Positions 114-30,298 of a DNA stretch of 44,418 nt are shown here, piece after piece. The notes below the pieces were generated by a model that was not told where the DNA came from, searched no databases, and saw nothing but the letters and a program-made list of their open reading frames with translations. Position 1 is the stretch's first letter. Each line of letters begins with the position of its first letter. Both the position numbers and the translations under genes were made by a program. This DNA is from a phage, in sequence record PX502252.1. One strand, given 5' to 3'.

Positions 114-115
114 TT

Positions 116-481: not shown

Positions 482-2470
482 ATGGCTATTATTCAGAATG
501 TACCGTGTCCTGCCTGTCAAAAGAATGGACATGATGTTACCGGCAACCATCTCATGATCTTTGATGATGGTGCTGGCTATTGCAACCGTGGTCACTTCCA
601 CGATAACGGAAAGCCATACTACCATAAGCCCGAAGGTGGTATCGAGATAACCGAGTTGCCTATTACTGGCAATATCAAATATACACCTTCTCAGTTCAAA
701 GAGATGGAGAGGGAAGGGAAGATAAGCGACCCTAAGCTACGCGCCATCGCACTAGGTGGTATGCGTATGAAAGACCGTTGGGAGGTTATGAATGAGCAAG
801 AAAGGGCAGACCAAGAAGCAGAGTGGAAACTCGATGTTGAATGGTTCCTCACGCTTAAGCGTAAGAACCTTGTATCCCGACACATTCGCGGTGACATCGC
901 AGCACTATATGATGTGCGAGTGGGCCATGATGAAGATGGAAGAGTCAATCGTCACTATTATCCACGATTCGAGAAGGGTGAGCTAGTAGGCGCTAAGTGC
1001 CGTACATTACCTAAAGATTTTAAGTTTGGTCACTTAGGTAAACTCTTTGGTATGCAAGACCTTTTCGGGATGAATACTTTGTCTCACGTGTTAGACAAGG
1101 GAAGACGAAAGGATTGCTTACTTATCGTAGGCGGTGAACTTGATGCACTAGCAGCACAGCAGATGCTTCTTGATTCTGCCAAGGGTACTAAGTGGGAAGG
1201 CCAGCCTTATCATGTATGGTCTGTCAATAAGGGTGAGTCTTGCCTCGAAGAGATAGTGCAAAACCGTGAGCACATCGCCCAATTCAAGAAGATTATCTGG
1301 GGCTTCGATGGTGATGAGGTAGGGCAGAAGCAGAACCAGCAAGCGGCTCGCCTGTTCCCCGGCAAATCCTATATCCTTGAATACCCTTCTGGTTGCAAAG
1401 ATGCCAACAAGGCATTGATGGCTGGCAAGGCTAAAGAATTTGTGGATGCTTGGTTTAATGCAAAGTCATCTGATGAAGTCTTTGGTAGCCAGATTAAATC
1501 TATCGCATCTCAAAGAGATAAGCTCAAGGCTGCACGTCCAGAACAAGGGCTGTCATGGCCTTGGCCTAAGCTAAACAAGGTAACGCTGGGTATCCGTAAG
1601 AACCAGCTTATCATTATAGGTGCAGGCTCTGGTGTTGGTAAGACAGAGTTTCTCCGTGAAGTAGTTAAGCACCTCATTGAAGAACACGGTGAATCTGTAG
1701 GCATCATTTCTACAGAAGACCCGATGGTCAAGGTGTCCCGTGCTTTTATCGGCAAATGGATTGATAAGCGTATTGAGTTACCGCCGACCAACGACCCGAA
1801 AGAAGATGGATACCGTGAGGTATTCGACTATACAGAGGAAGAGGCTAATGCTGCCATTGATTATGTAGCTGATACAGGGAAGCTATTTGTGGCTGACCTA
1901 GAGGGTGATTATTCAATGGAGAAGGTAGAGCAAACTTGCCTAGAGTTTGAGGCTATGGGTATTTCTAATATCATCATTGATAACTTAACGGGGATTAAAT
2001 TAGATGAGCGTGCTTTTGGTGGGAAGGTTGGTGCACTTGATGAATGCGTCAAGCGGATTGGTACTATCAAAGACCGACACCCAGTTACTATATTCCTTGT
2101 ATCACACCTTACACGTCCTCCGGCAAACCGTACCCAACACGAAGAAGGTGGCGAGGTTATCCTTTCTGACTTCCGAGGCTCAGGAGCTATCGGATTCTGG
2201 GCATCTTACGCCTTGGGGATTGAGCGTAACACAAGAGCTGAAACGCTTGATGAAAGGACTACCACGTACATCTCATGTGTCAAAGATCGTGACCAAGGTA
2301 TCTACACAGGAACCAAAGTCATGCTTAAGGGTGACATTCAAACCGGACGTTTGAGAGAACCACAGGCTAGAACAAGGTCATTTGATACAGGTGAAGCAAG
2401 GCAACAAGAAGTACCGGATTTACCGGACACTATAGAAGAGACAACCTTTGATGATGAACAGGAGTTTTGA
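482..2470 (+). CDS. DNA primase/helicase (T7 gp4-like)
   Basis: N-terminal Cys4 zinc ribbon (CPACQ...CNRGH), helicase Walker A GAGSGVGKTEF, acidic C-terminus ending DDEQEF; 662 aa. Confidence 0.95.
   Translation: MAIIQNVPCPACQKNGHDVTGNHLMIFDDGAGYCNRGHFHDNGKPYYHKPEGGIEITELPITGNIKYTPSQFKEMEREGKISDPKLRAIALGGMRMKDRWEVMNEQERADQEAEWKLDVEWFLTLKRKNLVSRHIRGDIAALYDVRVGHDEDGRVNRHYYPRFEKGELVGAKCRTLPKDFKFGHLGKLFGMQDLFGMNTLSHVLDKGRRKDCLLIVGGELDALAAQQMLLDSAKGTKWEGQPYHVWSVNKGESCLEEIVQNREHIAQFKKIIWGFDGDEVGQKQNQQAARLFPGKSYILEYPSGCKDANKALMAGKAKEFVDAWFNAKSSDEVFGSQIKSIASQRDKLKAARPEQGLSWPWPKLNKVTLGIRKNQLIIIGAGSGVGKTEFLREVVKHLIEEHGESVGIISTEDPMVKVSRAFIGKWIDKRIELPPTNDPKEDGYREVFDYTEEEANAAIDYVADTGKLFVADLEGDYSMEKVEQTCLEFEAMGISNIIIDNLTGIKLDERAFGGKVGALDECVKRIGTIKDRHPVTIFLVSHLTRPPANRTQHEEGGEVILSDFRGSGAIGFWASYALGIERNTRAETLDERTTTYISCVKDRDQGIYTGTKVMLKGDIQTGRLREPQARTRSFDTGEARQQEVPDLPDTIEETTFDDEQEF
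2418..2440 (+). promoter_or_regulatory. SP6-type phage promoter embedded in 3' end of primase/helicase gene (ATTTACCGGACACTATAGAAGAG)
   Basis: Full consensus match; in-frame encodes LPDTIEE. Confidence 0.65.
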
Positions 2471-2631
2471 TGGAAATTATTAAACCAGTATTGAGTATCG
2501 GTATTGACATCCTATTCATGCTTATGATTGCGGACTATGCTGCACGATACGGATTCAAGAAAGCTGTGAAACTTATAGTTGCATCTGGTTTTATTATGTC
2601 AATGTTCTTTATTGTAACACGCCTTATCTAG
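2470..2631 (+). CDS. Small hydrophobic membrane protein (53 aa)
   Basis: ATG overlaps helicase TGA stop (ATGA coupling); MEIIKPVLSIGIDILFMLMIADYAARYGFKKAVKLIVASGFIMSMFFIVTRLI; two hydrophobic segments; below ORF-track cutoff. Confidence 0.45.
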   Translation: MEIIKPVLSIGIDILFMLMIADYAARYGFKKAVKLIVASGFIMSMFFIVTRLI

Positions 2632-2648
2632 TGTATTTATCAGGGCTT

Positions 2649-2664
2649 GTCTCACATGTGAGAC
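2649..2664. promoter_or_regulatory. 16-bp perfect palindrome GTCTCACATGTGAGAC (site 3)
   Basis: Exact copy; intergenic. Confidence 0.7.
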
Positions 2665-2703
2665 AGGCTCTTATTAAGTACATTAAATAACTGGAGGTTG
2701 ACT

Positions 2704-3318
2704 ATGTATAAATTAGTATTGAATGTAGGTGACTCTGTACGCAATATCAAGAAAGGCTCAAGTCGCTACCTTTGCCGTGGTATCGTAACCTTTGTAGGTG
2801 AGAATTTGTACTATGTAGAATATAGTAATGGTGCTAAACAGTATTACCATAAGAAGACAGCACATAACTTTCTTGAGAAGATTGTCGAATCACTCAATGA
2901 CAAAGTATGTAATGCATATATCAGTATTGCTAATAGCGTTACTGGTGGTACACGTACCACACTTAAGAAAGAGCGCCGCAATGTAATCACTGGTAAGACT
3001 CAAAGTGAAATGGTTAAGCAGTGCGGCACTGCATTAGGTGTTACACAGTTTAATACTCGTGCATTGGGTAAATCCACAGGGCAAGCTATGGTAAAGATTG
3101 GCGAAGCCATGATGCATCCAAATGTGCCTGTACGAATCATGGATGTTGACCATGCAATCACAGAACACGGTACGCAACGACGTGTAATTAATAAGCATTT
3201 TGCCGACACTATAGAAGGTATTATTCGTAAGCAAGGGTTGAAGGGTCTTCACATCTTAAATGGTGAAGAATTACTGTACCTGCCTATCGTTACTGAAGAA
3301 ACATACGTGAATATCTAA
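2704..3318 (+). CDS. Hypothetical protein (204 aa)
   Basis: ATG 6 nt after CTGGAGG; ORF-track frame 2698-3318; no motif recognised. Confidence 0.7.
   Translation: MYKLVLNVGDSVRNIKKGSSRYLCRGIVTFVGENLYYVEYSNGAKQYYHKKTAHNFLEKIVESLNDKVCNAYISIANSVTGGTRTTLKKERRNVITGKTQSEMVKQCGTALGVTQFNTRALGKSTGQAMVKIGEAMMHPNVPVRIMDVDHAITEHGTQRRVINKHFADTIEGIIRKQGLKGLHILNGEELLYLPIVTEETYVNI
3197..3219 (+). promoter_or_regulatory. Possible intragenic phage promoter (CATTTTGCCGACACTATAGAAGG)
   Basis: Core GACACTATAGAAGG exact, upstream region partially matching; in-frame encodes ADTIEG. Confidence 0.4.
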
Positions 3319-3328
3319 GGAGTTAATC

Positions 3329-3746: not shown

Positions 3747-3755
3747 GTCAAGGGT

Positions 3756-3780
3756 TGTCTCACGCGTGAGACAGCCTTTT
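3756..3780 (+). terminator. Palindrome variant TGTCTCACGCGTGAGACA followed by GCCTTTT (site 4); hairpin plus T-run
   Basis: 18-bp perfect palindrome with centre CGCG instead of ATGT, then T-tract. Confidence 0.5.
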
Positions 3781-6408: not shown

Positions 6409-6417
6409 GTTATACTA

Positions 6418-6445: not shown

Positions 6446-6476
6446 TAACTTACTCCCACCTATTTTGTATAACAGG

Positions 6477-10301: not shown

Positions 10302-10696
10302 AATCTTCAGAGGTGGCAGCTTATAAGAAAGAGCTTATGGAGAAGCAAGGTTGGAAGTGCCCTCTGTGCGGAGGCAGCCTCAAGGCAGTAAGTCCTATCA
10401 ACCGTGTACTTGACCATGATCATGAGACAGGTTTCTGTCGTGCTGTTGTGTGTCGAGGTTGCAACGGTGCAGAAGGAAAGATTAAAGGTGTTATATCTGG
10501 CTACGGAAAGGCAGGTAATAACCGCTACTTCCAACTACAATGGTTAGAACGCCTGTATAACTACTGGAAGCTACATAGTACACCTCAGACAGATAAGTTA
10601 TATCATAATCATAAAACGGAGGCAGAGAAACGAGAGGCTAAGAATCGTAAAGCTCGCCTTGCTTATGCAAGAAAGAAGGAGGTTAAGAGTAGCTAA
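10286..10696 (+). CDS. Endonuclease VII-like Holliday-junction resolvase
   Basis: CPLCG...DHDHETGFCRAVVCRGCN matches T4 endo VII zinc/His motif pattern. Confidence 0.8.
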   Translation: MASKLKSSEVAAYKKELMEKQGWKCPLCGGSLKAVSPINRVLDHDHETGFCRAVVCRGCNGAEGKIKGVISGYGKAGNNRYFQLQWLERLYNYWKLHSTPQTDKLYHNHKTEAEKREAKNRKARLAYARKKEVKSS

Positions 10697-10960
10697 ACTT
10701 CGTAGCCTTTATAAAGACTCCGAGGTGCTTGATGCAATCGAGCAAGCTACCGACGAGAAAGGTAATGTTAACTATAATGAGATGGCGAAGATTCTATCTA
10801 GCCACCCTGTGGGTAAGAAGATCACCGTCAACTTGCTCGCTATTGGCATGGTCAATTCAAGAAGACCAAGAAGAATGGTGATTACTACCAGACTCTTCTG
10901 CAAGAGGATAAGCGTATCAAAGAAGAGCGTAAGCTCAGGACTCCTGACCGCTACGAGGAT

Positions 10961-11695
10961 TTGGCTATTGTACCATTGCCTGACTCGCCTCATCGAAGTG
11001 TACTGGTAATCCCTGATACTCATGCACCTTATGAGCACCCCGATACCTTAGAGTTCCTTGCAGCAGTGGCAGCACGTTATCGACCAGACACAGTGGTACA
11101 TCTTGGAGATGAGGCAGATAAACATGCCCTGTCATTCCATGATTCGGATCCAAATTTGGACAGTGCTGGCATGGAGTTAGAGAAAGCTCGTGTCTTCATG
11201 CACAAGTTGCACAAGATGTTTCCTGTGATGCGCCTGTGTCACTCTAATCACGGCTCTATGCACTTCCGTAAGGCAAGCGCCAAGGGTATTCCAGTGCAAT
11301 ATCTTCGTACCTACCGAGAAGTCTTCTTCCCGCAGGGAGGTGGCGACCAGTGGGATTGGCAGCATACGCATGTACTTGAGTTGCCGAATGGCGAACAGGT
11401 GGCATTCAAGCATCAACCTGCTGGCTCTGTCCTAGCAGATGCAGCGCATGAGCGTATGAATCTTGTGTGTGGTCACTTGCATGGTAAGATGTCTGTGGAG
11501 TACGCACGTAATACACATGAACAGTATTGGGCTGTGCAGGGTGGCTGCTTAATTGATGAGTCATCCCGTGCATTTGCCTATGGGCGTGAGTCTAAATACA
11601 AGCCAGCATTAGGTTGTGTGGTTATTCTGGAAGGTGTGCCTCATATTGTCCCGATGCAAACCAATAGCGACAACCGTTGGATTGGCAAGATTTAG
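10961..11695 (+). CDS. Calcineurin-like metallophosphoesterase; start codon uncertain (TTG at 10961, no in-frame ATG upstream)
   Basis: VLVIPDTHAPYEHPD (DxH), HLGDEAD (GDxxD), NHG, GHLH motifs; frame open from 10817 without ATG/GTG. Confidence 0.7.
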   Translation: MAIVPLPDSPHRSVLVIPDTHAPYEHPDTLEFLAAVAARYRPDTVVHLGDEADKHALSFHDSDPNLDSAGMELEKARVFMHKLHKMFPVMRLCHSNHGSMHFRKASAKGIPVQYLRTYREVFFPQGGGDQWDWQHTHVLELPNGEQVAFKHQPAGSVLADAAHERMNLVCGHLHGKMSVEYARNTHEQYWAVQGGCLIDESSRAFAYGRESKYKPALGCVVILEGVPHIVPMQTNSDNRWIGKI

Positions 11696-11712
11696 TTGAC
11701 ACTATAGAACAA
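11690..11712 (+). promoter_or_regulatory. SP6-type phage promoter variant (ATTTAGTTGACACTATAGAACAA)
   Basis: Core TGACACTATAGAA conserved; upstream ATTTAG as in SP6 itself. Confidence 0.6.
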
Positions 11713-16830: not shown

Positions 16831-16853
16831 ATTTACTGGACACTATAGAAGGG
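16831..16853 (+). promoter_or_regulatory. SP6-type phage promoter (ATTTACTGGACACTATAGAAGGG) upstream of major capsid gene
   Basis: Full consensus match. Confidence 0.8.
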
Positions 16854-18120: not shown

Positions 18121-18156
18121 GCCCTATCTACCTTGCGTAGGTAGGGTTCTTTTGTT
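18121..18156 (+). terminator. Stem-loop plus T-run terminator after capsid gene (GCCCTATCTACC...GGTAGGGTTCTTTTG)
   Basis: Same architecture as 9030-9061. Confidence 0.7.
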
Positions 18157-18908: not shown

Positions 18909-21313
18909 TGGAAGTACAAGGTTCTTTAGGTCGTCAGATTCAAGGTATTAGCCAACAACCAGCAGCAGTACGGTTAGACGGTCAATGTACTGATATGGTT
19001 AATATGGTTCCAGATGTAGTCAACGGTACACAATCCCGCATGGGTAGCACTCATATTGCAAAGCTAATGGAAGCAGGCAGTGACAATATGGCAACACATC
19101 ACTATAGAAGAGGGGATGGGGTAGAAGAGTATTTCTTTGTCATGAAGAAAGGTAGCGTGCCAGAAATATTTGACAAAGAAGGGCGTAAATGCACTGTGAT
19201 CTCTCAGGATGCACCTATGGCTTATCTTGCTGAGGTTGTGAACCCGAGAGAAGACGTGCAGTTCATGACTATTGCTGATGTAACATTTATGCTTAACAGG
19301 CGTAAAGTAGTGAAAGCTCGTAGTGATAAGTCTCCAAGTGTGGGAAACAAGGCTATTGTGTTTTCTGCCTACGGGCAGTATGGCACTTCGTACACTATCT
19401 CTATTAACGGCGAGCAAGCGGCGACCTTCAAAACTCCAGATGGAAGTGACCCTAGTCATGTAGAACAGATTCGCACTGAGTACCTAGCCACTAAGCTATA
19501 TGAGAGTTTACAGACATGGAGTAAAGCGTCACAGTACACCTTGCAAAGAGAAGGCACTAGTATCTACATTGAAACTAAAGATGGTAGTGATTTCACTATT
19601 ACTACCACAGATGGGGCCAAGGGTAAGGACTTGGTTGCCATAAAGAACCGAGTGTCATCTACAGACTTACTTCCCTCAAGAGCACCAGAAGGGTACAAGG
19701 TACAGGTGTGGCCTACAGGGAGTAAACCAGAATCTAGGTATTGGCTAGAGGCTGTACCTAAAGAAGGAGGTAACTTAGTTGCTTGGCAAGAAACTATTGC
19801 AGCAGATGTGTTACTTGGATTTGATAAAGATACTATGCCCTATATTATAGAGCGTACAGGTATTGTAGGAGGTGTGGCGCAGTTTAAGATAAGGCACGGT
19901 GATTGGGAAGATCGTAAGGTAGGAGATGACCTGACTAACCCTATGCCTTCTTTTATTGATGAAGATGTACCACAGGCGATTGGCGGTATGTTCATGGTGC
20001 AGAACCGTCTTTGTGTTACAGCAGGCGAAGCCGTCATAGCAACTAGGACTTCTCACTTCTTTGACTTCTTTCGTTTCTCCGCAGTATCTGCTGTGGCAAC
20101 AGACCCTTTCGATATTTTCTCAGATGCAAGTGAGGTATACCAGCTTAAACATGCAGTAACCCTAGATGGGGCAACAGTATTATTCGCAGATACATCTCAG
20201 TTCATACTTCCGGGGGATAAAGTATTAGAGAAATCTAATGTCATACTCAAGCCTGCTACAACTTTCGAAGTTGACAACAGGGTGCCACCTGTGGCAACTG
20301 GTGAGTCCGTGATGTTTGCTACAAGTGAGGGTGCTTACTCTGGTGTGCGTGAGTTTTATACCGATTCTTACAGCGACACTAAGAAGGCGCAGGCTGTTAC
20401 TAGTCATGTTAACAAGTTGATAGAAGGTAATATCACTCATATGGTAGCGAGCACTAATATCAACAGATTACTTGTAGTAACAGACAAAGACCCTAATATT
20501 GTCTATTGCTACGACTGGTTGTGGCAAGGGACAGATCGTGTACAGTCTGCATGGCATAAGTGGGTGTGGCCTAAAGATACTTTGATTCGCTCTATGGTCT
20601 ATTCCTCAGAGATGTTATATCTCATTGTAGAACGAGGTAATACTGGTTTGTATCTAGAGGTTATGGATATGGGTGATGCTCTTACTTATGGTTTAGTTGA
20701 CAGAATTAGACTGGATAGGCAAGCAGAGTTGATCTTCACCTATGATGCTAATACAGACCAGTGGGTTTCTAATGAGTTGCCTTGGAAGCCTACTGACCCA
20801 GCCTTACTTGAGTGTGTGATAATTCAAGGGTGGCCTGCTTATATTGGTGGTTCTTTTCATTTTGAATATGATGAAGCCAGTAATAAGCTAATTACAACTT
20901 TTGATTTATCAGAAGAAGGCACTAATGCTATAGCTGTCGTAGGGCAGTTGTATCAGCAGGAGTTTGAGCCAACACAGGTCGTTATTCGAGATAACCAAGA
21001 TAGAGTGTCCTACATAGATGTGCCAGTGGTAGGCCTGGTTCACCTTAACTTGGATAAATACCCTGACTTTGAAGTTCATATCAAGAACTTAAAGAGTGGC
21101 AAATTAAGAAAGGCTTTGGCATCTAACAGGAAAGGCGGGGCACTTAATAATGTTGTTGGTTATGTCAAGCCAGAAGAGGGGTCATTCAAATTTCCACTAA
21201 GATCCCTTAGTACAGATACTGTTTATCGTATCATTGTTAACTCCCCTCATACATTCCAACTCAGGGATATTGAGTGGGAAGGTTCGTATAACCCAACTAA
21301 GAGGAGGGTATAA
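18908..21313 (+). CDS. Tail tubular protein B, T7 gp12-like
   Basis: 801 aa; synteny. Confidence 0.88.
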   Translation: MEVQGSLGRQIQGISQQPAAVRLDGQCTDMVNMVPDVVNGTQSRMGSTHIAKLMEAGSDNMATHHYRRGDGVEEYFFVMKKGSVPEIFDKEGRKCTVISQDAPMAYLAEVVNPREDVQFMTIADVTFMLNRRKVVKARSDKSPSVGNKAIVFSAYGQYGTSYTISINGEQAATFKTPDGSDPSHVEQIRTEYLATKLYESLQTWSKASQYTLQREGTSIYIETKDGSDFTITTTDGAKGKDLVAIKNRVSSTDLLPSRAPEGYKVQVWPTGSKPESRYWLEAVPKEGGNLVAWQETIAADVLLGFDKDTMPYIIERTGIVGGVAQFKIRHGDWEDRKVGDDLTNPMPSFIDEDVPQAIGGMFMVQNRLCVTAGEAVIATRTSHFFDFFRFSAVSAVATDPFDIFSDASEVYQLKHAVTLDGATVLFADTSQFILPGDKVLEKSNVILKPATTFEVDNRVPPVATGESVMFATSEGAYSGVREFYTDSYSDTKKAQAVTSHVNKLIEGNITHMVASTNINRLLVVTDKDPNIVYCYDWLWQGTDRVQSAWHKWVWPKDTLIRSMVYSSEMLYLIVERGNTGLYLEVMDMGDALTYGLVDRIRLDRQAELIFTYDANTDQWVSNELPWKPTDPALLECVIIQGWPAYIGGSFHFEYDEASNKLITTFDLSEEGTNAIAVVGQLYQQEFEPTQVVIRDNQDRVSYIDVPVVGLVHLNLDKYPDFEVHIKNLKSGKLRKALASNRKGGALNNVVGYVKPEEGSFKFPLRSLSTDTVYRIIVNSPHTFQLRDIEWEGSYNPTKRRV

Positions 21314-22038: not shown

Positions 22039-24981
22039 ATGGCAATTGAACGTCAAGCTGTACAAGGTTTAGAAAGAGTACAGTCAAGGGGCGCGCCAAC
22101 ACCTATGTCTTTCACACCACGACAAGTGAGTATCTCAGGGGGCGCTGATGCCTCCGGTAGTAGATTTTTGGAAGACTTAGTAAACGCCGCAAGTAGTGTG
22201 GCTGATGTCACTACTGCTATCCTTAATCAGCAAGTAGAAGACGATAAGGTTCGCCAGATGGATAGGGCTTTGTCTGGCATGATGCCTTCTGAGGATGCCA
22301 CGGTAGGCGGTGCTCGTGCTCATATGCTGGTTAGTTTACAAAATGATGTAATCGCACAGACAACTGCGCTACAAGCAGAAGCACAGCGATTTCAAGGTAG
22401 TGACGAGGATTGGGAAAACTATGTAGTTCAATCTCGTAATGAGGTACAAAATAGATTATGGCAAAGTTATCCAGAGCTTCGTGGTGACAAAGATTCTATG
22501 AGGCTTGTCACTAACGCGTTCATGGAGCAGCAACCTAGAATTACTGCAACTAGAGCAGAGGCTAAACTTCGTCAAGAAGAAGAAGCACGAATGCAATCTA
22601 TGCAGTCTCGTATTATCATGGCTACAAGGGACGTAGCGCCAGATGCCACTGGTGCAGCTCTTATCCAGCTACAAAAAGAAGCACTGGCGATGGGTCTTAG
22701 TAAACCTGAGTTTGATCAAATGGTTGCTAAGATTGCATCTGAAAGAGCGGCAGTAGGAGATGATAGTCTTATTCAGGGAACCAAGGCATTGGTGGATGAT
22801 AAGGGTGTCTCTTTGTATGACCGTGTTGGTGCTTTGCAAACTGGAGAAATTCAAGCTAACAGAACTTGGGCTGCTCAGAATCAGGTTGCCCTCTTCGAGA
22901 AGAAAGATGCAGCTATAAAGGCATTCGATGCAGGGCAACTTACTCGCGAAGAGTTACTTCAGGTAATGCAGAATCACAATGAATTGACTGGTGGCACTGC
23001 TTGGTCTGATAGCGAGATCAAGGCTATCTTCGATAGGCAAGCTAAGGTTAATGCAGAGAAAGCAAAGCTCGAAGATCTTATTGCACGAGGTGAATCTGGG
23101 TCGCCTTTAGGCTTACAGGACATTAGTAAGGATGACAGAAAGACATATGCTGAAGCCTTAGTTAGTACCTACACTAAGCTGGCAGAAGATGAAATTGCTC
23201 GTACTGGTGCAACGGGAGAACAGGCTGAAGCTATTCGCGGTAGGTATGAGCAGATGCGTTATCTTAAATTGGGTCAACAGCTTATTGAAGACCCGATCAT
23301 TAAGGAAAGGTATTCGTCGCTTATGCAGCTATCCTCTGCCAACCTCAAGGATATGAATGTTGAACCTGAAGCACTGCAAACTATCATGCGAGCACGTGAT
23401 TCTATTCCAGAGGATGCACGTCGTGCTGTTATGGGAGACAAAGAATATGCCTTTGTTGAGAACTATGACTTAGCAACTCGCATGGGATATAACACAGGTC
23501 AAGCTATTGAGTTTGCACAGAATGCCTCTCGCGGCGAGAAATTACAAGGTTCTGTGCTCAAAGAACTTAATGATGATGTAGATGGAGTAGTTAGTGACAT
23601 TGCAGGAGGTAGCTGGCTCACTTTTGGTGATAACATGAGTGAAATGGGACGTGACATTATGATGGAGGAGGCAAGTACAATTGCTAGAGCAATGAAGGTT
23701 GCAGGCCATAATAATGACACTATTAAGCGTCACCTTAAATCCTATCTTACAAGCCAGTATACACAATTGTCAGAAGGTTTCTTTACTCAAGGTGTTCTTG
23801 TAAAAGGAGACATTCGTACATTAGGGGACACTATAGGAGTAAACCAAGGAGACGTCCCAATGGCTCTCCGTCAGTACCTAGATAATAACAAACAAGCTCT
23901 ACTAGATGCATCAGGTGGGTTAGAGGAAGGCGACCTGTATTTTGATGTAGATGCGCAGCGTGGCCTCTTTACTATACGTGCAGGCTCTGGTCGTGTGCCT
24001 GTTACACAGGCAATGCCTTTGTCTGAAATCAAAGGTCAATCCTTGCTTAAGCAACGGTATGATGCAGAGGTTAAAGCACGTGATGAAGGGCGTAAGAATT
24101 TTGAAGCACAACAAATGCGAATGTGGGGTGCAGGTGGATATCAAGCACAGCCACCTGCAAAGACTACAGCCAAAACTGTAGGCTCACGTGGTATTGCTGA
24201 CTTCTTAATGTCTCCCGCCTTTGCATCAGGTGAAAGATTGCCAGCAAACTTTGAGTTTGGCTATAAGAGGAATAATATGGACTTTTATAACTATGTGGCT
24301 AAGACTGAGAATAGCGCCAATGTAGGGTTCGACCGAGTAGCGGGAGTTTATACACCATACAAAGATGCACATGGTCAGTCTGTAGGTTATGGTCACTTCC
24401 TTACTGCTGAAGAGAAGAAGAACGGATACATTATGATTGGTACAGAGAAAGTGCCATTCACTCCGGGGCAATCTCAATTAACACCAGAACGTGCCATGCG
24501 CCTCCTACAGCAAGACTTGAAGAGCCATGTGCCAAGCACTTCAGGGTGGGCTGTTCCCTTCGAAGAGATGCACCCAGGTGTTCAGCGTGGCCTTATGGAT
24601 TTGTCCTATAACTTAGGTAAAGGAGGCATCCAGAATGCTCCTAAGGCATATGCTGCGTTTAAGGCTGGCAAGTTTACTGATGGCTTTATCGAGATGTTAT
24701 CTACTGCATCTACTGAAGGTAAACGTAGCACTGGGTTGTTGGTTCGTAGGGCAGAAGCATATAATCTTGCCCAGAGCGGAGGTGCTGTTCCTAAGATTAG
24801 TGAAGTAGAGACACGAGCAGATGGGTCCATGTATGTGAAGTTTGCAGGTCAGATGTCAGAGGCTTTCGTAAGTAAATCAATCTATAATCAGATTGGTAAG
24901 GATGGGTGGATGCAAGTGTACCCTCCAAAACAAGGTGCGCTTGCACCTAACACTCAGGTTGGTAGAATCAAACTAAGCTAG
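22039..24981 (+). CDS. Internal virion protein with C-terminal T4-lysozyme-like (GH24) muramidase domain
   Basis: 980 aa; segment E...YTPYKDAHGQSVGYGHFLT matches the E/D/T catalytic region pattern of T4 lysozyme (YKDTEGYYTIGIGHLLT). Confidence 0.8.
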   Translation: MAIERQAVQGLERVQSRGAPTPMSFTPRQVSISGGADASGSRFLEDLVNAASSVADVTTAILNQQVEDDKVRQMDRALSGMMPSEDATVGGARAHMLVSLQNDVIAQTTALQAEAQRFQGSDEDWENYVVQSRNEVQNRLWQSYPELRGDKDSMRLVTNAFMEQQPRITATRAEAKLRQEEEARMQSMQSRIIMATRDVAPDATGAALIQLQKEALAMGLSKPEFDQMVAKIASERAAVGDDSLIQGTKALVDDKGVSLYDRVGALQTGEIQANRTWAAQNQVALFEKKDAAIKAFDAGQLTREELLQVMQNHNELTGGTAWSDSEIKAIFDRQAKVNAEKAKLEDLIARGESGSPLGLQDISKDDRKTYAEALVSTYTKLAEDEIARTGATGEQAEAIRGRYEQMRYLKLGQQLIEDPIIKERYSSLMQLSSANLKDMNVEPEALQTIMRARDSIPEDARRAVMGDKEYAFVENYDLATRMGYNTGQAIEFAQNASRGEKLQGSVLKELNDDVDGVVSDIAGGSWLTFGDNMSEMGRDIMMEEASTIARAMKVAGHNNDTIKRHLKSYLTSQYTQLSEGFFTQGVLVKGDIRTLGDTIGVNQGDVPMALRQYLDNNKQALLDASGGLEEGDLYFDVDAQRGLFTIRAGSGRVPVTQAMPLSEIKGQSLLKQRYDAEVKARDEGRKNFEAQQMRMWGAGGYQAQPPAKTTAKTVGSRGIADFLMSPAFASGERLPANFEFGYKRNNMDFYNYVAKTENSANVGFDRVAGVYTPYKDAHGQSVGYGHFLTAEEKKNGYIMIGTEKVPFTPGQSQLTPERAMRLLQQDLKSHVPSTSGWAVPFEEMHPGVQRGLMDLSYNLGKGGIQNAPKAYAAFKAGKFTDGFIEMLSTASTEGKRSTGLLVRRAEAYNLAQSGGAVPKISEVETRADGSMYVKFAGQMSEAFVSKSIYNQIGKDGWMQVYPPKQGALAPNTQVGRIKLS

Positions 24982-24998
24982 TGTTATACTCAAGGTTT

Positions 24999-25014
24999 GT
25001 CTCACATGTGAGAC
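24999..25014. promoter_or_regulatory. 16-bp perfect palindrome GTCTCACATGTGAGAC (site 6), between internal virion protein genes
   Basis: Exact copy, flanked by T/A extending palindrome to 18 bp. Confidence 0.7.
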
Positions 25015-25048
25015 ATGCCTTTATGAATGACACTAACTAGGAGGTAAC

Positions 25049-28000
25049 ATGGTTGATAGTATTAACCAAAACTGGGTGGCGGTGACTCAACGCAAGTTAC
25101 CGCCTACCTTCTCTCAAGTTGCTGAAGCCGAACGTAGGGTAGAAGACCAGAGAGCTAAGGATAAAGTATTTCAAACAGCAATAGAAAGTGAGTGGGCTTT
25201 GTACGGTGGACAACGTGCCTATGAACGCCACACTACAGAGTTTACTGAACAAGAAGGTTATGAAGTACCTGAATCAACTAAGGATGAACTATCCAAGTTG
25301 TATGGGTATGAAATAGCGCAAGACATAGTTAAGAATGTGAAGTCTCCAGAAGAGTTGCAATTCCGTATGTCTAATGCTGCTGCTGATAAAGACAGAGCAG
25401 ACATCTTAGCACGTAATGGTTTCACAGGTTTTAGCGCACAGATTGCTGCTGGCATTCTTGACCCTGTAGGTTGGGCGGCTTCTCTAGTAGCTGCACCTGT
25501 AGCTGGTGCTGTCAAAGTAGGTCGTCTAGGTAGGATTATCAAGACGGCTGCCTTATCTGGTGCTGAAAATGCTGCATTAGAAGCTGTGCTTGCACAAGGT
25601 GATTACCAACGAGGTGTCGATGATGTACTGGCTGCTGCCGGGTTTGGTATGATTATGGGCGGTACTATTGGCGCTGCAACTAGGGAACGCATAGCCAGTG
25701 CTGGTTCTCGTACAGCGGCAGAGAGAGCAGAGGTTGTATTTGATGACTTGGACACCGTAGTAAAAGGTGCTGATGAGTTTGACTCGTCTGCTGCTCGTGC
25801 TGTACGTGAGGCCATGGAGTATGACGCGTATATGGCAGCACGTAATTATGAACCACTTCGTGCAAGAGAGGTGGATGCAGATATGGCAATTCTATCTCAC
25901 ACAGACAACTTGAAAGCCAATGCGTCGGTAAGGATGAGTGCTAGTGAGAAAGGACTACTGAAGAAACAGATACGCCAACTGGAAGCAGAAGCAGCCACAC
26001 TTAAGGGGAAGAAGATAGATGCTGTAGCAGAGGCTGCCGCCGCTAAGGGTGCACCTAAATCTGCTGCGGACAGATTGGATTTAGATGTTCAGAAGAAAGC
26101 ACTGGCACGTAGATTCGATGAACCACTTGCTGATTTACAAGCGCGTCTAGATGAGTTGAATGCCAAGTTATCTCGTGCGAACAATGTAGGTAAGGCTAAG
26201 GAGGAGCTTAAGAGATTCTCATCGCTGTCCCGTGAAGATCAAATAAAGGAACTAGGTTTAGACGCACCAATGCGTAAGGTGGAGATGACCCGTGCTGTAC
26301 GCGATGCAGTAGCTGCAATCCGTGCCGAACGTAAGAAGACACCTACCGAAATACATGCTGGACAAGTTGCAGAAGAGGCAATCAAACAAAAGGCAGATGA
26401 CTCTATTGGTGCTAAACGTGTTGAAGGTTCAGAGATTGCAGGCGAGCAGTTTGACTTATCTAAAAACATGGAAGAGCTTATGGACGACTTGGCACGAGAA
26501 GCATATCAGTCAGATGTGCGGCCTATTAATCTTAAGGGTCTAGGTTCGGTGTCTTCTGTGATTCTTAACTCAGAGAACCCTGTGTTCCGAGGTCTAGGCC
26601 TTCGTCTGCTTGAAAATGCTCAGGGTGGTGCATATCAAGGTAAGACAGCTTCTATCTTATCAGATGTGTATGGCAACCTTATTCGTCATGCAGAACGTAA
26701 CAGGTACAATGATGGTTTCTCTCAATTCATCAAAGATAACAACCTGCGTGCAGTAGATTATCTTAATCCTGCAACGACACGGGATTTCAATAATCAGATT
26801 TATACAGCAATTGTTCGTGGCATACCAGAAGATACACCTCGTGGTGTTAAACTGGCAGCCGAAGGTATTGCTGATAAACTCAAGAAAGCACTTGAGATTC
26901 GTAAGCAAGCAGGAGAGCATGGATTCGAGGATGTACAATCTGCTAAGGATTACATCCCTGTTATCTATGACGGTATCAAAATCACAGAGGCAGTTAACAA
27001 GCTAGGTAGCAGTGAAGCTGTCATACACTTGCTGTCTAAAGGTTATCAGACAGGCAAGTACAAGCTTGGCAAGAAAGCTGCTGATGCACTAGCCAAAGTC
27101 CAGTATATTCGCGCATCTGACTCTACCCTCTCTAGTCGTGTTGCATTCGATAGAGTGGTATCCCAGCAGCAGCAGGTTCAGTTGATTGAGGATCTGAAGA
27201 AAGCAGGAGTACCAGATCGTATCATTGATAATTTCATTGAAGGTACGGAATTAGCAGAAATGGCTGAATCGGTATCCAATCGAGCTAAAGCCAGTATGGG
27301 TATTAATACGCAAGCCGAATACGGTGGTTTGAAGGTGCAGGATTTGCTTAATACCAACGTAGGTGAGCTAACTGAGAACTACGGCAAAGAGGCAGCGGGT
27401 GGTGCTGCATTAGCTGCTATGGGTTTCCCTACTCGCCAATCTGTGCTGAACGCAATAGATGCCGCAGAACGCGCAGGCCGCAATATGGCGGGGTCAAATG
27501 CTAAGGCAATCAAACAGCTTAGGTCTGAGGCAGAAATGCTAAGAGATGCCGTTAAGCTTATTTACGGCAACACTATAGACGCCGACCCTAACTCTGGAAT
27601 TGTCAGGGGCACTAGACGTGTCCGCGAGATTACAGGCTTGTTACGATTAGGCCAAATGGGCTTCGCTCAGATACCCGAACTGGCACGTGCAATCTCTAAG
27701 ATGGGGCTAGGGACTGTGCTGAAGTCTGTACCTGCCACTAAGTTCTTACGTTCGAGAGCGGCTCGTAAAGGTGGCACGGCTCAGGGTGAGCTGCTTGAAC
27801 CTGAACTGCGGGAAATGGAGGAACTCTTAGGCTATATCGGGGAAGATAACTGGCTTACAGGGTGGAACGTCCGTCATGATGAGTTCGGAGAAACTGCTGA
27901 TAACCTAGGTAAGCTGTCCGCTATTATTGATAATGGCTTGGCTATGGGTAGTAGAATCAACACAATTCTCTCTGGTTTTAAAGCAGTACAAGGTGGTTCA

Positions 28001-28852
28001 GAGAAAATTGTAGCTCGCTCTATCAATAAGAGACTAAAGCAACATTTGATGGGTGAGCGACAGCTACCCAAAGCAGACCTTGAAGAAGTTGGCCTAAGTG
28101 AAGATGTCATGAAGAGACTTAAACGTCACTTTGATGATAACCCAATGTACGCTGATTACAACGGTGAAAAAGTTCGTATGATGAACTTTGATGCTATGGA
28201 GCCAGATCTGAGAGAAACAGTAGGTGTTGCTGTGCGAAGAATGTCAGGCCGTCTTATTCAACGTAACTTCATTGGTGATGAAGGTATCTGGATGAACAAA
28301 TGGTGGGGTAAAGCATTAACTCAGTTTAAGTCATTCTCTATCGTCTCTATTGAGAAACAGTTAATCCATGATTTACGAGGTGATAAGATTCAGGCTGCAC
28401 AGATACTTGCATGGTCTACTTTACTAGGTTATGCATCTTATTCACTACAGATGCAGCTGCAAGCGATTGGTAGGGAAGATAGAGACAAGTTCTTGAGGGA
28501 TAAGTTTGACACACAGAACATCGCTATGGGTGTCTTTAATAAACTCCCACAAGTTGCAGGCTTCGGTCTTGCTGGTGATGCTTTGGCAACCTTTGGCCTA
28601 ATGCCAGACTCCATGATGCAAGCACCGGGACGTATGGGCTTCCGTCAGCAAGGATTTGGTGATTTGGTAGCAGGTGCTGGTGTAATCAGTGATACAGTTA
28701 ATTTGTCACAAGCACTGGTTAAGTATGCCAGTGGGGATGATGATGTCTCTACTAGGCAGTTGGTGGACAAGGTGCGTCGCCTTGTTCCTTTGGCAAATAC
28801 TATTGGTGTAGGTCAGATGACTAAAGCCAGTGTAGACTTATTGGAGGATTGA
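25049..28852 (+). CDS. Internal virion (core/ejection) protein, T7 gp16-like
   Basis: 1267 aa; size and position. Confidence 0.85.
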   Translation: MVDSINQNWVAVTQRKLPPTFSQVAEAERRVEDQRAKDKVFQTAIESEWALYGGQRAYERHTTEFTEQEGYEVPESTKDELSKLYGYEIAQDIVKNVKSPEELQFRMSNAAADKDRADILARNGFTGFSAQIAAGILDPVGWAASLVAAPVAGAVKVGRLGRIIKTAALSGAENAALEAVLAQGDYQRGVDDVLAAAGFGMIMGGTIGAATRERIASAGSRTAAERAEVVFDDLDTVVKGADEFDSSAARAVREAMEYDAYMAARNYEPLRAREVDADMAILSHTDNLKANASVRMSASEKGLLKKQIRQLEAEAATLKGKKIDAVAEAAAAKGAPKSAADRLDLDVQKKALARRFDEPLADLQARLDELNAKLSRANNVGKAKEELKRFSSLSREDQIKELGLDAPMRKVEMTRAVRDAVAAIRAERKKTPTEIHAGQVAEEAIKQKADDSIGAKRVEGSEIAGEQFDLSKNMEELMDDLAREAYQSDVRPINLKGLGSVSSVILNSENPVFRGLGLRLLENAQGGAYQGKTASILSDVYGNLIRHAERNRYNDGFSQFIKDNNLRAVDYLNPATTRDFNNQIYTAIVRGIPEDTPRGVKLAAEGIADKLKKALEIRKQAGEHGFEDVQSAKDYIPVIYDGIKITEAVNKLGSSEAVIHLLSKGYQTGKYKLGKKAADALAKVQYIRASDSTLSSRVAFDRVVSQQQQVQLIEDLKKAGVPDRIIDNFIEGTELAEMAESVSNRAKASMGINTQAEYGGLKVQDLLNTNVGELTENYGKEAAGGAALAAMGFPTRQSVLNAIDAAERAGRNMAGSNAKAIKQLRSEAEMLRDAVKLIYGNTIDADPNSGIVRGTRRVREITGLLRLGQMGFAQIPELARAISKMGLGTVLKSVPATKFLRSRAARKGGTAQGELLEPELREMEELLGYIGEDNWLTGWNVRHDEFGETADNLGKLSAIIDNGLAMGSRINTILSGFKAVQGGSEKIVARSINKRLKQHLMGERQLPKADLEEVGLSEDVMKRLKRHFDDNPMYADYNGEKVRMMNFDAMEPDLRETVGVAVRRMSGRLIQRNFIGDEGIWMNKWWGKALTQFKSFSIVSIEKQLIHDLRGDKIQAAQILAWSTLLGYASYSLQMQLQAIGREDRDKFLRDKFDTQNIAMGVFNKLPQVAGFGLAGDALATFGLMPDSMMQAPGRMGFRQQGFGDLVAGAGVISDTVNLSQALVKYASGDDDVSTRQLVDKVRRLVPLANTIGVGQMTKASVDLLED

Positions 28853-29811
28853 TGAGTTACACATTCACTGAACATACAGCGAATGGCACTCAAACTACTT
28901 TCCCCTTCCGGTTCGCTGGGAGGGACAAGGGGTACTTGAGGGCTTCTGATATTTTAGTTGAAGTAAGAAATGATGGTGTATGGAACACGGTAAGCGGTTG
29001 GACACTTACAGGCACTAACCAGATAACCTTTAATGTACCACCAGCGGCAAATACAAAACTTCGCATCAGGCGCGTTGTAGAGAAAGAAGAGCCTTATGCA
29101 GAGTTTGACCGTGGTGTGACCTTAGATATGAAATCTCTCAATAACTCCTTTATACACCTTTTGGAAGTATCTCAGGAGCTACTGGATGGTTTCTATCCAG
29201 ATGGTTACTTTGTAAAGCAAGATACATCTTGGGGTGGACATAAGATTACTGATTTGGCTGATGGCACAAATCCGGGAGATGCAGTAAATAAAGGACAGCT
29301 TGATGCCATCGACAAGAAGCATACAGATTGGAACGCCAAACAGGACATTGAGATTGCTGGCCTTAAAGCAGGTATGACTTCTGGTATTGCGCACAGAACT
29401 GTCCCTTGGTATACGATCGCACAAGGAGGTGAGATTTCCGTAAAGCCTCCTTATGAATTTCAAGATGCACTAGTTTTCCTTAATGGGGTATTACAACACC
29501 AAATCGTAGGCGCATACTCTATAAGCAACAACACTATTACTTTCGCAGAGCCACTTGTGGCTGGCACAGAGGTGTACGTGTTGGTGGGGAGTCGTGTGGC
29601 TACATCTGAACCTAATATTCAGTTAGAGCTGAACTTTGACTTAGTAGAAGGTCAACAAGTAGTAAAGATTGGCTCTGCATTTAAGTATATTGAGGTTTAT
29701 CTTGATGGACTATTACAACCTAAACTTGCTTATCAGGTAGATGGTGACATTGTTACTTTCTCAGAGGGAGTACCAGAATGTCGGATGACTGCTAAGATTA
29801 TCACAGCATAA
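28852..29811 (+). CDS. Tail fibre adaptor protein (T7 gp17 N-terminal domain-like)
   Basis: N-terminus FTEHTANGTQTTFPFRF...TKLRIRR resembles tail-attachment domain of T7 gp17; 320 aa. Confidence 0.7.
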   Translation: MSYTFTEHTANGTQTTFPFRFAGRDKGYLRASDILVEVRNDGVWNTVSGWTLTGTNQITFNVPPAANTKLRIRRVVEKEEPYAEFDRGVTLDMKSLNNSFIHLLEVSQELLDGFYPDGYFVKQDTSWGGHKITDLADGTNPGDAVNKGQLDAIDKKHTDWNAKQDIEIAGLKAGMTSGIAHRTVPWYTIAQGGEISVKPPYEFQDALVFLNGVLQHQIVGAYSISNNTITFAEPLVAGTEVYVLVGSRVATSEPNIQLELNFDLVEGQQVVKIGSAFKYIEVYLDGLLQPKLAYQVDGDIVTFSEGVPECRMTAKIITA

Positions 29812-29820
29812 GGAGGTGGG

Positions 29821-30015
29821 ATGATAAACTCCGAACTGGTAGACAATGGTGTGAAGCTAGCGCCACCTGCATTAGTCTCAGGTGGGTACTTCCTCGGTAT
29901 CAGTTGGGACAATTGGGTACTGATAGCAACATTCATTTATACAGTGTTGCAGATTGGCGATTGGTTCTATACTAAATATACAATATGGAGGAAGAAGCGT
30001 GAGCGTGCACAATAA
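29821..30015 (+). CDS. Holin-like small membrane protein (64 aa)
   Basis: AGGAGG SD; hydrophobic segment WVLIATFIYTVLQIG and basic C-terminus RKKRERAQ; position equals T7 gene 17.5. Confidence 0.6.
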   Translation: MINSELVDNGVKLAPPALVSGGYFLGISWDNWVLIATFIYTVLQIGDWFYTKYTIWRKKRERAQ

Positions 30016-30298
30016 ACATGCAGCCACAGAGGATGAAGTAGGCATCCTGCATGGCGCTATTACGAAGATGTTTAATAAGAAAGCAAAGGCTATACTGGAC
30101 ACTATAGAAGCAGACCCTGATTCTGCTATGCACCTAGTGTCAGGTAAAGATATTGGAGCCATGTGTAAATGGGTTTTAGATAATGGCATTACTGCCACCC
30201 CTGCTGCACAGCAGGAGGAGTCCAAGTTATCTAAGCGCCTCAAGGCTATCCGAGAGGCGTCCAGTGGCAAGATCATTCAGTTCACTAAGGAGGATTGA
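29999..30298 (+). CDS. Terminase small subunit (start uncertain)
   Basis: Immediately upstream of large terminase with stop/start overlap; GTG 29999 has GGAGGA 6 nt upstream; ORF track extends to 29954. Confidence 0.55.
   Translation: MSVHNKHAATEDEVGILHGAITKMFNKKAKAILDTIEADPDSAMHLVSGKDIGAMCKWVLDNGITATPAAQQEESKLSKRLKAIREASSGKIIQFTKED
30091..30113 (+). promoter_or_regulatory. SP6-type phage promoter embedded in small terminase gene (TATACTGGACACTATAGAAGCAG)
   Basis: Core ACTGGACACTATAGAAG exact; in-frame encodes ILDTIEA. Confidence 0.55.

What the first reader, a model, noticed from the sequence alone, without database searches (positions are those of the whole stretch)
2418..30113. Promoters embedded in coding sequence are all in the same reading frame, encoding Asp-Thr-Ile
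Promoter-like sequences inside genes at 2418 (helicase, LPDTIEE), 3197 (204-aa ORF, ADTIEG), 23826 (internal virion protein, GDTIGV, partial promoter match) and 30091 (small terminase, ILDTIEA) all place GAC-ACT-ATA in frame. Only the weak partial match at 19095 is in a different frame. This suggests dual coding/regulatory constraint or a preferred way such promoters arise.
Basis: seen in the sequence. Interest (0 to 1): 0.55.

Follow-up and report, generated by a model that had tools for sequence, protein, structure and literature searches.

The report
Phage promoters inside genes, same frame
Four phage-polymerase promoter sequences inside genes of this K1-5/SP6-like phage all read Asp-Thr-Ile, which is the expected outcome because one other reading frame of the promoter has a stop codon and the third needs rare codons, so the pattern is real but ordinary.

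Summary
The window is a complete, circularly permuted Vectrevirus genome (K1-5/K1E/SP6 group). GACACTATA, the core of its polymerase promoter, occurs 13 times, all on the + strand. Four copies lie fully inside genes: primase-helicase gp9, gp10, internal virion protein gp35 and small terminase gp39. All four read GAC-ACT-ATA.

The shared frame needs no special explanation.
- One alternative frame always contains CTA-TAG.
- The other reads CAC-TAT-AGA with rare codons, and is closed by TGA in SP6-type promoters.
- Chance near-matches in this phage's genes fall 68-80% in the Asp-Thr-Ile frame, so four of four has P of about 0.2-0.4.

The sites themselves are not chance (about 0.07 expected). They are inherited at the same places in relatives.
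- The gp9 site is a full-consensus promoter. In 8 lineages with different promoter cores the tail peptide changes with the core (LPDTIE, LGDTIE, LETTIE, LGRTIE, IGATIE, IVAGIE, MCCTIE, LPPSIE).
- The gp39 site arose in Vectrevirus by five synonymous changes and one replacement, all toward the consensus.
- The gp10 and gp35 sites are weak partial matches of uncertain activity.

Embedded phage-polymerase promoters are a known kind (T7 phi4c). Interest is modest.

The parts
2418..2440 (+). Full-consensus phage-polymerase promoter (-17 to +6, ATTTACCGGACACTATAGAAGAG) inside the C-terminal tail of primase-helicase gp9. It reads D-L-P-D-T-I-E-E; GAC is 14 codons before the stop.
   Evidence: Weight-matrix score 37.1, within the range of intergenic promoters. 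It is in frame 0. It sits at the same place in 8 lineages, each time matching that lineage's own promoter consensus at 18-19 of 20 positions. It lies beyond the DnaB_C domain, which ends at aa 604.
3197..3219 (+). Partial promoter match (ATTTTGCCGACACTATAGAAGGT) in gp10, reading H-F-A-D-T-I-E-G. GAC is 37 codons before the gp10 stop; +1 lies 115 nt upstream of the gp10.5 start.
   Evidence: Score 20.1. It is present in the Vectrevirus loci examined. SP6-like phages carry a DTI site 4-6 residues away at a non-homologous position, and other lineages have none. Synonymous conservation of the core is at the 5th-9th percentile.
23819..23841 (+). Partial, SP6-type promoter match (CATTAGGGGACACTATAGGAGTA) in the middle of internal virion protein gp35, reading T-L-G-D-T-I-G-V.
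   Evidence: Score 18.1. It is orthologous to SP6 29401 in gene 36. The motif LGD(T/A)IG with TTAGGTGACACTATAGG is conserved in SP6-type gp35 proteins and absent from K1-5-type gp35. Synonymous diversity of the core is at the 0.7th percentile of 3-codon windows.
30090..30112 (+). Near-consensus promoter (CTATACTGGACACTATAGAAGCA, matching from -14 to +4) in small terminase gp39, reading A-I-L-D-T-I-E-A. GAC is 200 nt upstream of the large terminase start.
   Evidence: Score 23.4. It is present in most Vectrevirus loci and in no SP6-like locus. Relatives with the peptide AILDAIE use ATC CTC GAT GCT ATC GAG, whereas Vectrevirus uses ATA CTG GAC ACT ATA GAA.
19097..19112 (+). Weak partial match (CAT CAC TAT AGA AGA G) in gp33, in the other open frame.
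   Evidence: It lacks GA at -9/-8 and has two mismatches to the 13-mer core. It is probably not a promoter.
482..2470 (+). gp9, the primase-helicase that hosts the 2426 promoter.
   Evidence: 98% identical to K1-5 gp9. Pfam finds DnaB_C and Toprim_2.
2704..3318 (+). gp10, of unknown function, which hosts the 3205 site.
   Evidence: 77% identical to K1-5 gp10. No significant Pfam family.
22039..24981 (+). gp35, an internal virion protein of the SP6 type, which hosts the 23827 site.
   Evidence: 43% identical to K1-5 gp35 and 81-98% identical to the SP6, CrRp3 and LL11 type.
29999..30298 (+). gp39, the small terminase subunit, which hosts the 30098 site.
   Evidence: 95% identical to K1-5 gp39. 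Pfam finds DNA_Packaging_2.
16831..16853 (+). Reference intergenic promoter upstream of the major capsid gene (ATTTACTGGACACTATAGAAGGG). Eight more lie at 116, 6477, 7245, 8523, 11690, 32195, 34546 and 40451.
   Evidence: According to PMC6412113, the putative promoter upstream of the major capsid gene was the promoter tested with each phage polymerase, including K1E's.
41723..44350 (+). Single-subunit RNA polymerase gene (gp7), the enzyme that would read these promoters.
   Evidence: 97% identical to K1-5 RNA polymerase. The specificity loop differs between the lineages that have different promoter cores.
18121..18147 (+). Strong terminator-like hairpin after the capsid gene. Downstream of it, up to 32203, the only promoter-like sites are the two intragenic ones at 23827 and 30098.

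Best explanation
The four sites are copies or remnants of the phage's own promoter for its single-subunit RNA polymerase. They lie in the 3' parts of genes because the genome is tightly packed.

The polymerase is expected to bind -17 to -5, melt the TATA and start at the G of GAA. This is inferred from what is known of SP6 and T7 polymerases.

All four sites read Asp-Thr-Ile(-Glu) because that is the only comfortable frame of the promoter.
- The frame with G at codon position 3 always contains CTA-TAG.
- The frame with G at position 2 reads CAC-TAT-AGA-AGN, which needs rare His, Tyr and AGR-Arg codons.
- That second frame is closed by TGA whenever -10 is T, as in SP6-type promoters.
- GAC-ACT-ATA-GAA has ordinary coding periodicity.

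Three of the four places (gp9, gp10 region, gp35) are shared with SP6-like phages, so the four frames are not independent draws.

The sequence, not the peptide, is what is kept.
- In the flexible acidic tail of the helicase, the promoter dictates the amino acids.
- In gp39, an older A-I-L-D-A-I-E helix was retuned into a promoter, mostly through synonymous changes.

Likely activity: 2426 is a working promoter for gp10 onward, and 30098 is probably a working promoter for the large terminase. 3205 and 23827 are weak promoters or relics.
For: Frame logic:
- It follows directly from the consensus ATTTACTGGACACTATAGAAG.
- The codon-usage product favours frame 0 by 3.5-fold for the 9-mer and about 50-fold for the 13-mer.
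- Real near-misses in this phage's coding sequences split 9:0:1 between frames 0, 1 and 2 at 3 mismatches, 35:2:11 at 4 mismatches and 164:29:47 at 5 mismatches.
- Codon-shuffled genes give 6.2:0.40:1.13. P(4 of 4) is therefore 0.22-0.41.

Inheritance: across 57 related loci, 61 of 63 flagged intragenic GACACTATA copies are in frame 0. Nearly all fall at the same few orthologous places.

Promoter identity of 2426:
- It is a full consensus match.
- The peptide tracks the promoter core in 8 lineages.
- Each lineage's site matches its own consensus at 18-19 of 20 positions, against 9-17 for other lineages' consensus.
- A ninth lineage has one mismatch.
- The polymerase specificity loops differ accordingly.
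- L015 lacks both the promoter and the peptide. K1-5 keeps the peptide with a synonymous C-to-T change at -7.

gp39: six directional substitutions toward the consensus.

Nucleotide-level constraint:
- The core codons are at low synonymous-diversity percentiles, 0.043, 0.046, 0.045 and 0.20, with Fisher P = 0.005.
- Four of the 8 DTI tripeptides use GAC ACT ATA, P = 1.9e-5.

Functional rationale: after the capsid terminator at 18121-18147, the only promoter-like sites before 32203 are 23827 and 30098.

Precedent: T7 phi4c sits inside gene 4.
Against: - No transcription data exist for this phage or were found for close relatives, so the activity of any of the four sites is inferred.
- 3205 and 23827 score well below the intergenic promoters.
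- L025 has changed its promoter core to TTGCACTATAG and changed its helicase site to match, yet it keeps an SP6-type GACACTATA in gp10. This argues that the gp10 site is not maintained as a promoter there.
- The gp35 site in the window keeps an SP6-type upstream half rather than the Vectrevirus one.
- The synonymous-site tests rest on only 11-17 distinct, related sequences, and each alone is marginal.
- The 7-codon window test for gp10 is at the 18th percentile.
Confidence: 0.85

Rival explanations
1. D-T-I(-E) is a peptide motif selected for protein function, for example a shared interaction or cleavage signal. On this reading the resemblance to the promoter is secondary.
For: L-G-D-(T/A)-I-G is conserved at the protein level in SP6-type gp35. 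A-I-L-x-x-I/V-E-x-D-P is conserved in gp39 across all lineages. K1-5 keeps D-T-I in gp9 while the promoter core is mutated.
Against: - In gp9 the residues change to TTI, RTI, ATI, AGI, CTI and PSI exactly as each lineage's promoter core changes, and L015 lacks them.
- The gp10 motifs in Vectrevirus and in SP6-like phages are at non-homologous positions.
- gp39 relatives have DAIE, AAVE, KEIE, NEIE or EVIE instead.
- The four other DTI tripeptides in the proteome use other codons.
- The four host proteins are unrelated to each other.
Confidence: 0.05
2. The sites are chance occurrences of a 9-mer in coding sequence, and the common frame is luck.
For: Two of the four are only partial promoter matches. 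With only four sites the frame statistic is weak.
Against: About 0.07 copies are expected in all coding sequence against 4 observed, Poisson P about 1e-6. All 13 copies are on the + strand. The sites are conserved at orthologous positions in relatives.
Confidence: 0.02
3. The frame is selected beyond stop avoidance and composition. For example, the rare ATA codon or the acidic D-T-I-E peptide could be needed to couple translation of the upstream gene to initiation at the embedded promoter.
For: About seven separate embedded places across the family (gp9 tail, gp10 in Vectrevirus, gp10 in SP6-likes, gp35, gp39, gp36 in L046/L050, and L043:314) are in this frame. No convincing fully embedded site was found in the other open frame.
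Against: Seven of seven has P = 0.07-0.21 under the composition nulls. In SP6-type lineages this frame is the only open one. T7 phi4c sits in the 'stop' frame, with TAA changed to CAA and TAG to AAG, so embedding is possible in other frames. No mechanism is known.
Confidence: 0.05
4. The weaker sites (3205 and 23827) are non-functional relics. They would have been carried in with recombined gene modules from phages whose polymerase had a slightly different specificity.
For: The window's gp35 is of the SP6 type, only 43% identical to K1-5 gp35, and its site has the SP6-type upstream TTAGGG/TTAGGT. L025 keeps the SP6-type gp10 site although its own promoter core has changed. L032 and L036 carry GAC-to-GAT changes and L040 a D-to-G change.
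Against: The core codons of the gp35 site are among the least variable at synonymous positions in the gene, at the 0.7th percentile. A second, non-homologous site in the same part of gp10 in SP6-like phages suggests that a promoter is wanted there.
Confidence: 0.4

Closest known systems
SP6, K1-5 and K1E promoters for single-subunit phage RNA polymerases (SP6 consensus ATTTAGGTGACACTATAGAAG)
   Same: They share the core GACACTATAG and the start at GAA. They occur in many copies on one strand and the cognate polymerase is encoded in the genome. SP6 itself has sites at the orthologous places in its helicase (8419), gene 11 (9120) and gene 36 (29401). Its 12 promoter-like copies equal the count of 12 SP6 promoters quoted in PMC11880802. 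GAA at +1 to +3 gives the highest SP6 activity (PMC7429497).
   Different: The window's consensus has CTG or CCG at -12 to -10 where SP6 has GGT. With G rather than T at -10, the second frame is no longer closed by TGA.
T7 promoter phi4c inside gene 4 (primase-helicase)
   Same: It is a phage-polymerase promoter fully embedded in a coding sequence, again in the primase-helicase gene, with coding and promoter constraints on the same bases.
   Different: phi4c lies in the frame where the consensus has two stops. It deviates from the consensus exactly there (CAA for TAA, CTA AAG for CTA TAG). It lies 594 nt before the gene's end, not in the C-terminal tail.
T7 promoters whose TAA at -17 to -15 is the stop codon of the upstream gene (phi1.3, 1.5, 1.6, 2.5, 4.3, 9, 17)
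   Same: The promoter and the gene end overlap, with a promoter base triplet serving as the stop codon. In each case +1 lies 15 nt after the gene's end. The window does the same at 40459 (TGA of gp4) and at 11698 (TAG of gp22).
   Different: The overlap there covers only the stop codon. The four sites in the finding are translated through.

Membership tests
SP6/K1-5-type phage RNA polymerase promoter | Match to the genome's own 23-bp promoter consensus (-17 to +6) | tested here: met
   This applies to 2426, which scores 37.1 against 29.7-38.5 for the nine intergenic promoters.
SP6/K1-5-type phage RNA polymerase promoter | Match to the consensus, for the three other sites | tested here: inconclusive
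   30098 scores 23.4 and matches from -14 to +4. 3205 scores 20.1 and 23827 scores 18.1. The core from -9 to +1 is perfect in all three, but the upstream half deviates.
SP6/K1-5-type phage RNA polymerase promoter | Cognate single-subunit RNA polymerase encoded in the same genome, with the promoter on the transcribed strand | tested here: met
   The polymerase gene is at 41723-44350, 97% identical to K1-5's. All 13 core copies are on the + strand.
SP6/K1-5-type phage RNA polymerase promoter | The site co-varies with the lineage's promoter specificity | tested here: met
   This holds for the gp9 site only. In 8 lineages the site matches its own lineage's consensus best. It does not hold for the gp10 site in L025.
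SP6/K1-5-type phage RNA polymerase promoter | Nucleotide-level conservation beyond what the protein requires | tested here: inconclusive
   The core codons are at the 0.7th to 22nd percentile of synonymous diversity. The Fisher combination gives P = 0.005, from few and related sequences. The gp39 codon retuning is clear.
SP6/K1-5-type phage RNA polymerase promoter | Transcription initiates at +1 with the cognate polymerase | not testable with these tools
   No transcript data were found. The Dobbins 2004 paper on SP6 could not be fetched, and the Scholl 2004 paper on SP6 and K1-5 was not looked up.

The most novel reading that the evidence does not exclude
The helicase tail is a running record of promoter specificity. 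Each time the polymerase's specificity changed in this subfamily, an essential replication protein had to accept new residues (Asp-Thr, Thr-Thr, Arg-Thr, Ala-Thr, Ala-Gly, Cys-Thr, Pro-Ser) in its C-terminal linker. If so, the need to keep that tail readable and tolerable limits which promoter sequences the polymerase can evolve toward. The constraint between a regulatory code and a protein code would then run in both directions.
Probability: 0.25. Interest if true: 0.5.

Novelty: new member of a known kind. Interest (0 to 1): 0.3.

Why it matters
The frame coincidence itself teaches little. A stop codon closes one of the promoter's other frames, and the remaining one needs rare codons.

Two by-products are useful as examples of overlapping codes.
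- In the gp9 tail a regulatory element dictates protein sequence across at least eight lineages.
- In gp39 a promoter was built from an existing helix, mostly by synonymous changes.

There are also practical consequences. Promoter finders that mask coding sequence will miss real promoters in this phage group. Recoding or refactoring such phages, or expressing their helicase or terminase genes alongside SP6- or K1E-type polymerases, can create or destroy internal transcription starts.

Tried and rejected
- I looked for published promoter tables. The Dobbins 2004 SP6 paper and the Shin 2000 SP6 promoter mutagenesis paper are not held. The GenBank records of K1-5, SP6 and K1E carry no promoter features. 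Text searches found no description of the frame pattern or of the helicase-tail covariation.
- A first census flagged frame-1 embedded promoters in other lineages. On checking, L022:21692 lies in a spurious ORF that overlaps gp22 out of frame. L024:9481 lies in a 96-codon ORF that I judged doubtful, without checking it. L022:15848 and L024:15839 are poor one-mismatch matches. I withdrew them as counter-examples.
- I considered an internal translation start after 23827 (AAGGAG, 6 nt, in-frame ATG). The Met is not conserved in relatives, so I dropped it.
- The 7-codon synonymous-diversity windows are only marginal: 3rd to 18th percentile within the clades that carry each site, and the 59th for gp39 once SP6-like phages, which lack that site, are added. 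The first gp10 run failed because of a truncated sequence and was repeated without it.
- I considered sigma-70 promoters as an alternative identity. Their count is at or below the shuffle expectation.


Full report
**What the window is.** The 44,418-bp window is a complete genome of a Vectrevirus (K1-5/K1E group; Autographiviridae, Molineuxvirinae), circularly permuted relative to K1-5. The first 20 kb match CrRp3, LL11, K1-5 and K1E at 87-93% identity over more than 89% of their length. K1-5 proteins map colinearly onto it, with the single-subunit RNA polymerase at 41723-44350.

**The promoter.** GACACTATA occurs 13 times, all on the + strand, against 0.46 expected. The nine intergenic copies give the consensus ATTTACTGGACACTATAGAAG. 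This is the K1-5/K1E variant of the SP6 promoter. According to PMC6412113, the putative promoter upstream of the major capsid gene, the counterpart of the window's 16839 site, was the promoter tested with each phage polymerase, K1E's included.

Four copies lie fully inside genes, with G at codon position 1.
- 2426 is in the primase-helicase gp9 and reads DLPDTIEE.
- 3205 is in gp10 and reads HFADTIEG.
- 23827 is in internal virion protein gp35 and reads TLGDTIGV.
- 30098 is in small terminase gp39 and reads AILDTIEA.

Pfam confirms DnaB_C and Toprim in gp9 and DNA_Packaging_2 in gp39. The partial match near 19095 reads CAT CAC TAT AGA AGA in gp33. It is in the other frame and lacks the GA at -9/-8.

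The sites differ in quality. A weight matrix from the intergenic promoters scores 2426 at 37.1, which is a full promoter. It scores 30098 at 23.4, 3205 at 20.1 and 23827 at 18.1. Intergenic promoters score 29.7-38.5.

**Is the shared frame surprising? No.**
- Read with G at codon position 3, the promoter contains CTA-TAG, so that frame is closed in every lineage.
- Read with G at position 2, it gives (N)GA-CAC-TAT-AGA-AGN, which needs rare His, Tyr and AGR-Arg codons.
- In SP6-type promoters (GGTGACAC) that second frame is also closed, by TGA.
- From this phage's codon usage, frame 0 is favoured 3.5-fold for the 9-mer and about 50-fold for GACACTATAGRAG.
- Real near-misses to GACACTATAGAAG in the window's genes split 9:0:1 between frames 0, 1 and 2 at three mismatches, 35:2:11 at four and 164:29:47 at five. 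Codon-shuffled genes give 6.2:0.40:1.13.
- With a frame-0 share of 0.68-0.80, four of four has P = 0.22-0.41.

**Are the sites themselves chance? No.**
- About 0.07 copies are expected in all coding sequence and four are seen.
- Of the eight DTI tripeptides in the proteome, four use GAC ACT ATA. That codon triple is expected 2.3% of the time, giving P = 1.9e-5.
- It is the DNA, not the peptide, that is special.

**Relatives.** I collected 57 loci from IMG/VR, plus K1-5, SP6 and K1E. In lineages that use GACACTATA, 61 of 63 flagged intragenic copies are in frame 0. They fall at the same few places. The two exceptions end at the promoter's own TGA or TAG. The four frames in the window are therefore not independent events.

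SP6 has 13 GACACTATA copies. Twelve are promoter-like, equal to the count of 12 quoted in PMC11880802. That count of 12 can only be reached by including the sites inside SP6's helicase, gene 11 and gene 36. This is an inference from the numbers.

**The gp9 site.** It sits 14 codons before the stop, in the acidic tail beyond the DnaB_C domain (aa 604 of 662). The tail ends in ...QEF. From published work on T7 gene 4, which I recall rather than tested, this resembles the acidic, Phe-terminated tail of T7 gp4 that contacts the DNA polymerase.

Eight lineages with different promoter cores all carry their own promoter at this same place and in this same frame, and the peptide follows the core:

| Lineage | Sequence at the site | Peptide |
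|---|---|---|
| Vectrevirus | TTA CCG GAC ACT ATA GAA | LPDTIE |
| SP6 | TTA GGT GAC ACT ATA GAA | LGDTIE |
| L018 | GACCACTATAG | LETTIE |
| L019 | GCGGACTATAG | LGRTIE |
| L020 | GGCTACTATAG | IGATIE |
| L022-24 | GGCGGGTATAG | IVAGIE |
| L025 | TTGCACTATAG | MCCTIE |
| L027 | CACCCAGCATAG | LPPSIE |

- Each site matches its own lineage's consensus at 18-19 of 20 positions, against 9-17 for the other lineages.
- The polymerase specificity loops differ accordingly.
- A ninth lineage, at 56% helicase identity, has its own core there with one mismatch. Another has the promoter 42 nt after the stop codon.
- L015 has lost both the promoter and the peptide.
- K1-5 keeps the peptide but has a synonymous C-to-T change at -7.

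This is strong comparative evidence that 2426 is a real promoter and that it dictates the amino acids.

**The gp39 site.** The peptide A-I-L-x-x-I/V-E-x-D-P is ancestral. SP6-like relatives with AILDAIE encode it as GCA ATC CTC GAT GCT ATC GAG. Vectrevirus has GCA ATA CTG GAC ACT ATA GAA. That is five synonymous changes and one replacement (Ala to Thr), all toward the Vectrevirus promoter consensus. This looks like the birth of a promoter on a peptide that already nearly fitted, 200 nt upstream of the large terminase gene.

**The gp10 and gp35 sites.**
- In gp10, the Vectrevirus motif (HFADTIEG) and the SP6-like motif (VLRDTIGG) are 4-6 residues out of register, and other lineages have none.
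- L025 retuned its helicase site to its new core but keeps an SP6-type GACACTATA in gp10.
- The window's gp35 is of the SP6 type, only 43% identical to K1-5 gp35. Its site keeps the SP6-type upstream half.
- Against mere relic status, the core codons of the gp35 site are at the 0.7th percentile of synonymous diversity.
- After the strong terminator behind the capsid gene (18121-18147), 23827 and 30098 are the only promoter-like sites before 32203.
- Over all four sites, the core windows sit at percentiles 0.043, 0.046, 0.045 and 0.20, with Fisher P = 0.005. This is based on 11-17 related sequences, so it is only indicative.

**Comparison with T7.** Only phi4c is fully inside a gene, again the primase-helicase. 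It lies in the 'stop' frame, with TAA changed to CAA and TAG to AAG. Seven other T7 promoters supply the TAA stop of the upstream gene. The window does the equivalent at 40459 (gp4 ends TTT AGC TGA) and at 11698 (gp22 ends ATT TAG).

**Verdict.**
There is a dual constraint, and this frame is the easy route for a promoter to arise.
- The common frame is explained by stop codons, codon composition and shared descent.
- These are embedded phage-polymerase promoters of a known kind.
- The covariation of the helicase tail with promoter specificity, and the retuning of gp39, are tidy examples and worth a short note. I found no description of them in the searchable library.
- No transcription data were available, so the activity of each site remains inferred.

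Noticed in passing
window 98-138 and 281-324: Just after the polymerase gene terminator (31-54) there is a repeated unit. It consists of the palindrome GTCTCACATGTGAGAC followed by a promoter. The first promoter is consensus (124). The second is degenerate (310, ATTTACCGGACAGTATAGATAAG, score 21.7). A pair made of a consensus promoter and a slightly off-consensus one, 130-170 nt apart, is present at this place in the other lineages examined. It recalls the tandem phi1.1A/1.1B promoters at the T7 primary replication origin.
   Followed up: partly
window 10689-11695: The gp22 homologue (SP6 gene 23, annotated as a metalloprotease) is split by a 1-nt deletion near 10826-10845. It is intact in the related loci that cover it completely. 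This is either a sequencing error or a real frameshift.
   Followed up: partly
window 22039-28852: The internal virion proteins gp35 and gp36 are of the SP6, CrRp3 and LL11 type. They are only 38-43% identical to K1-5's, while the flanking genes are 79-97% identical to K1-5's. This is a mosaic module.
   Followed up: partly
window 34546-35714 and 40451-40710: The promoters at 34554 and 40459 are in the stop-free frame relative to the downstream ORF, so the ORF appears to extend upstream through the promoter. The same occurs upstream of tailspike genes in several relatives. ORF callers may place start codons too early here.
   Followed up: no
window 23836-23862: The 23827 site is followed by AAGGAG, 6 nt and an in-frame ATG. 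A transcript started there could encode a C-terminal fragment of gp35. The Met is not conserved in relatives, where the residue is Ile, Thr or Leu.
   Followed up: partly
L040, L049, L051-L053, L056, L057 and K1E (L059 37390-40034): The large terminase gene carries an insert of about 750 bp in several relatives. In K1E it is annotated as 40A, a homing endonuclease 40.5 and 40B. L036 and L037 have an HNH-like ORF immediately upstream of the large terminase gene. The window has neither.
   Followed up: no
L058 (SP6) 19953-19970: The thirteenth GACACTATA copy in SP6 is the start of the portal gene (ATG CAA GAC ACT ATA CTT, MQDTIL). It lacks G at +1 and an upstream match, and it is again in frame 0.
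   Followed up: no
window 34536-37605: The two tailspike genes have no similarity to the K1-5 K5 lyase or endosialidase beyond a 55-residue N-terminal adaptor. The host capsule specificity therefore probably differs from K1 and K5.
   Followed up: no
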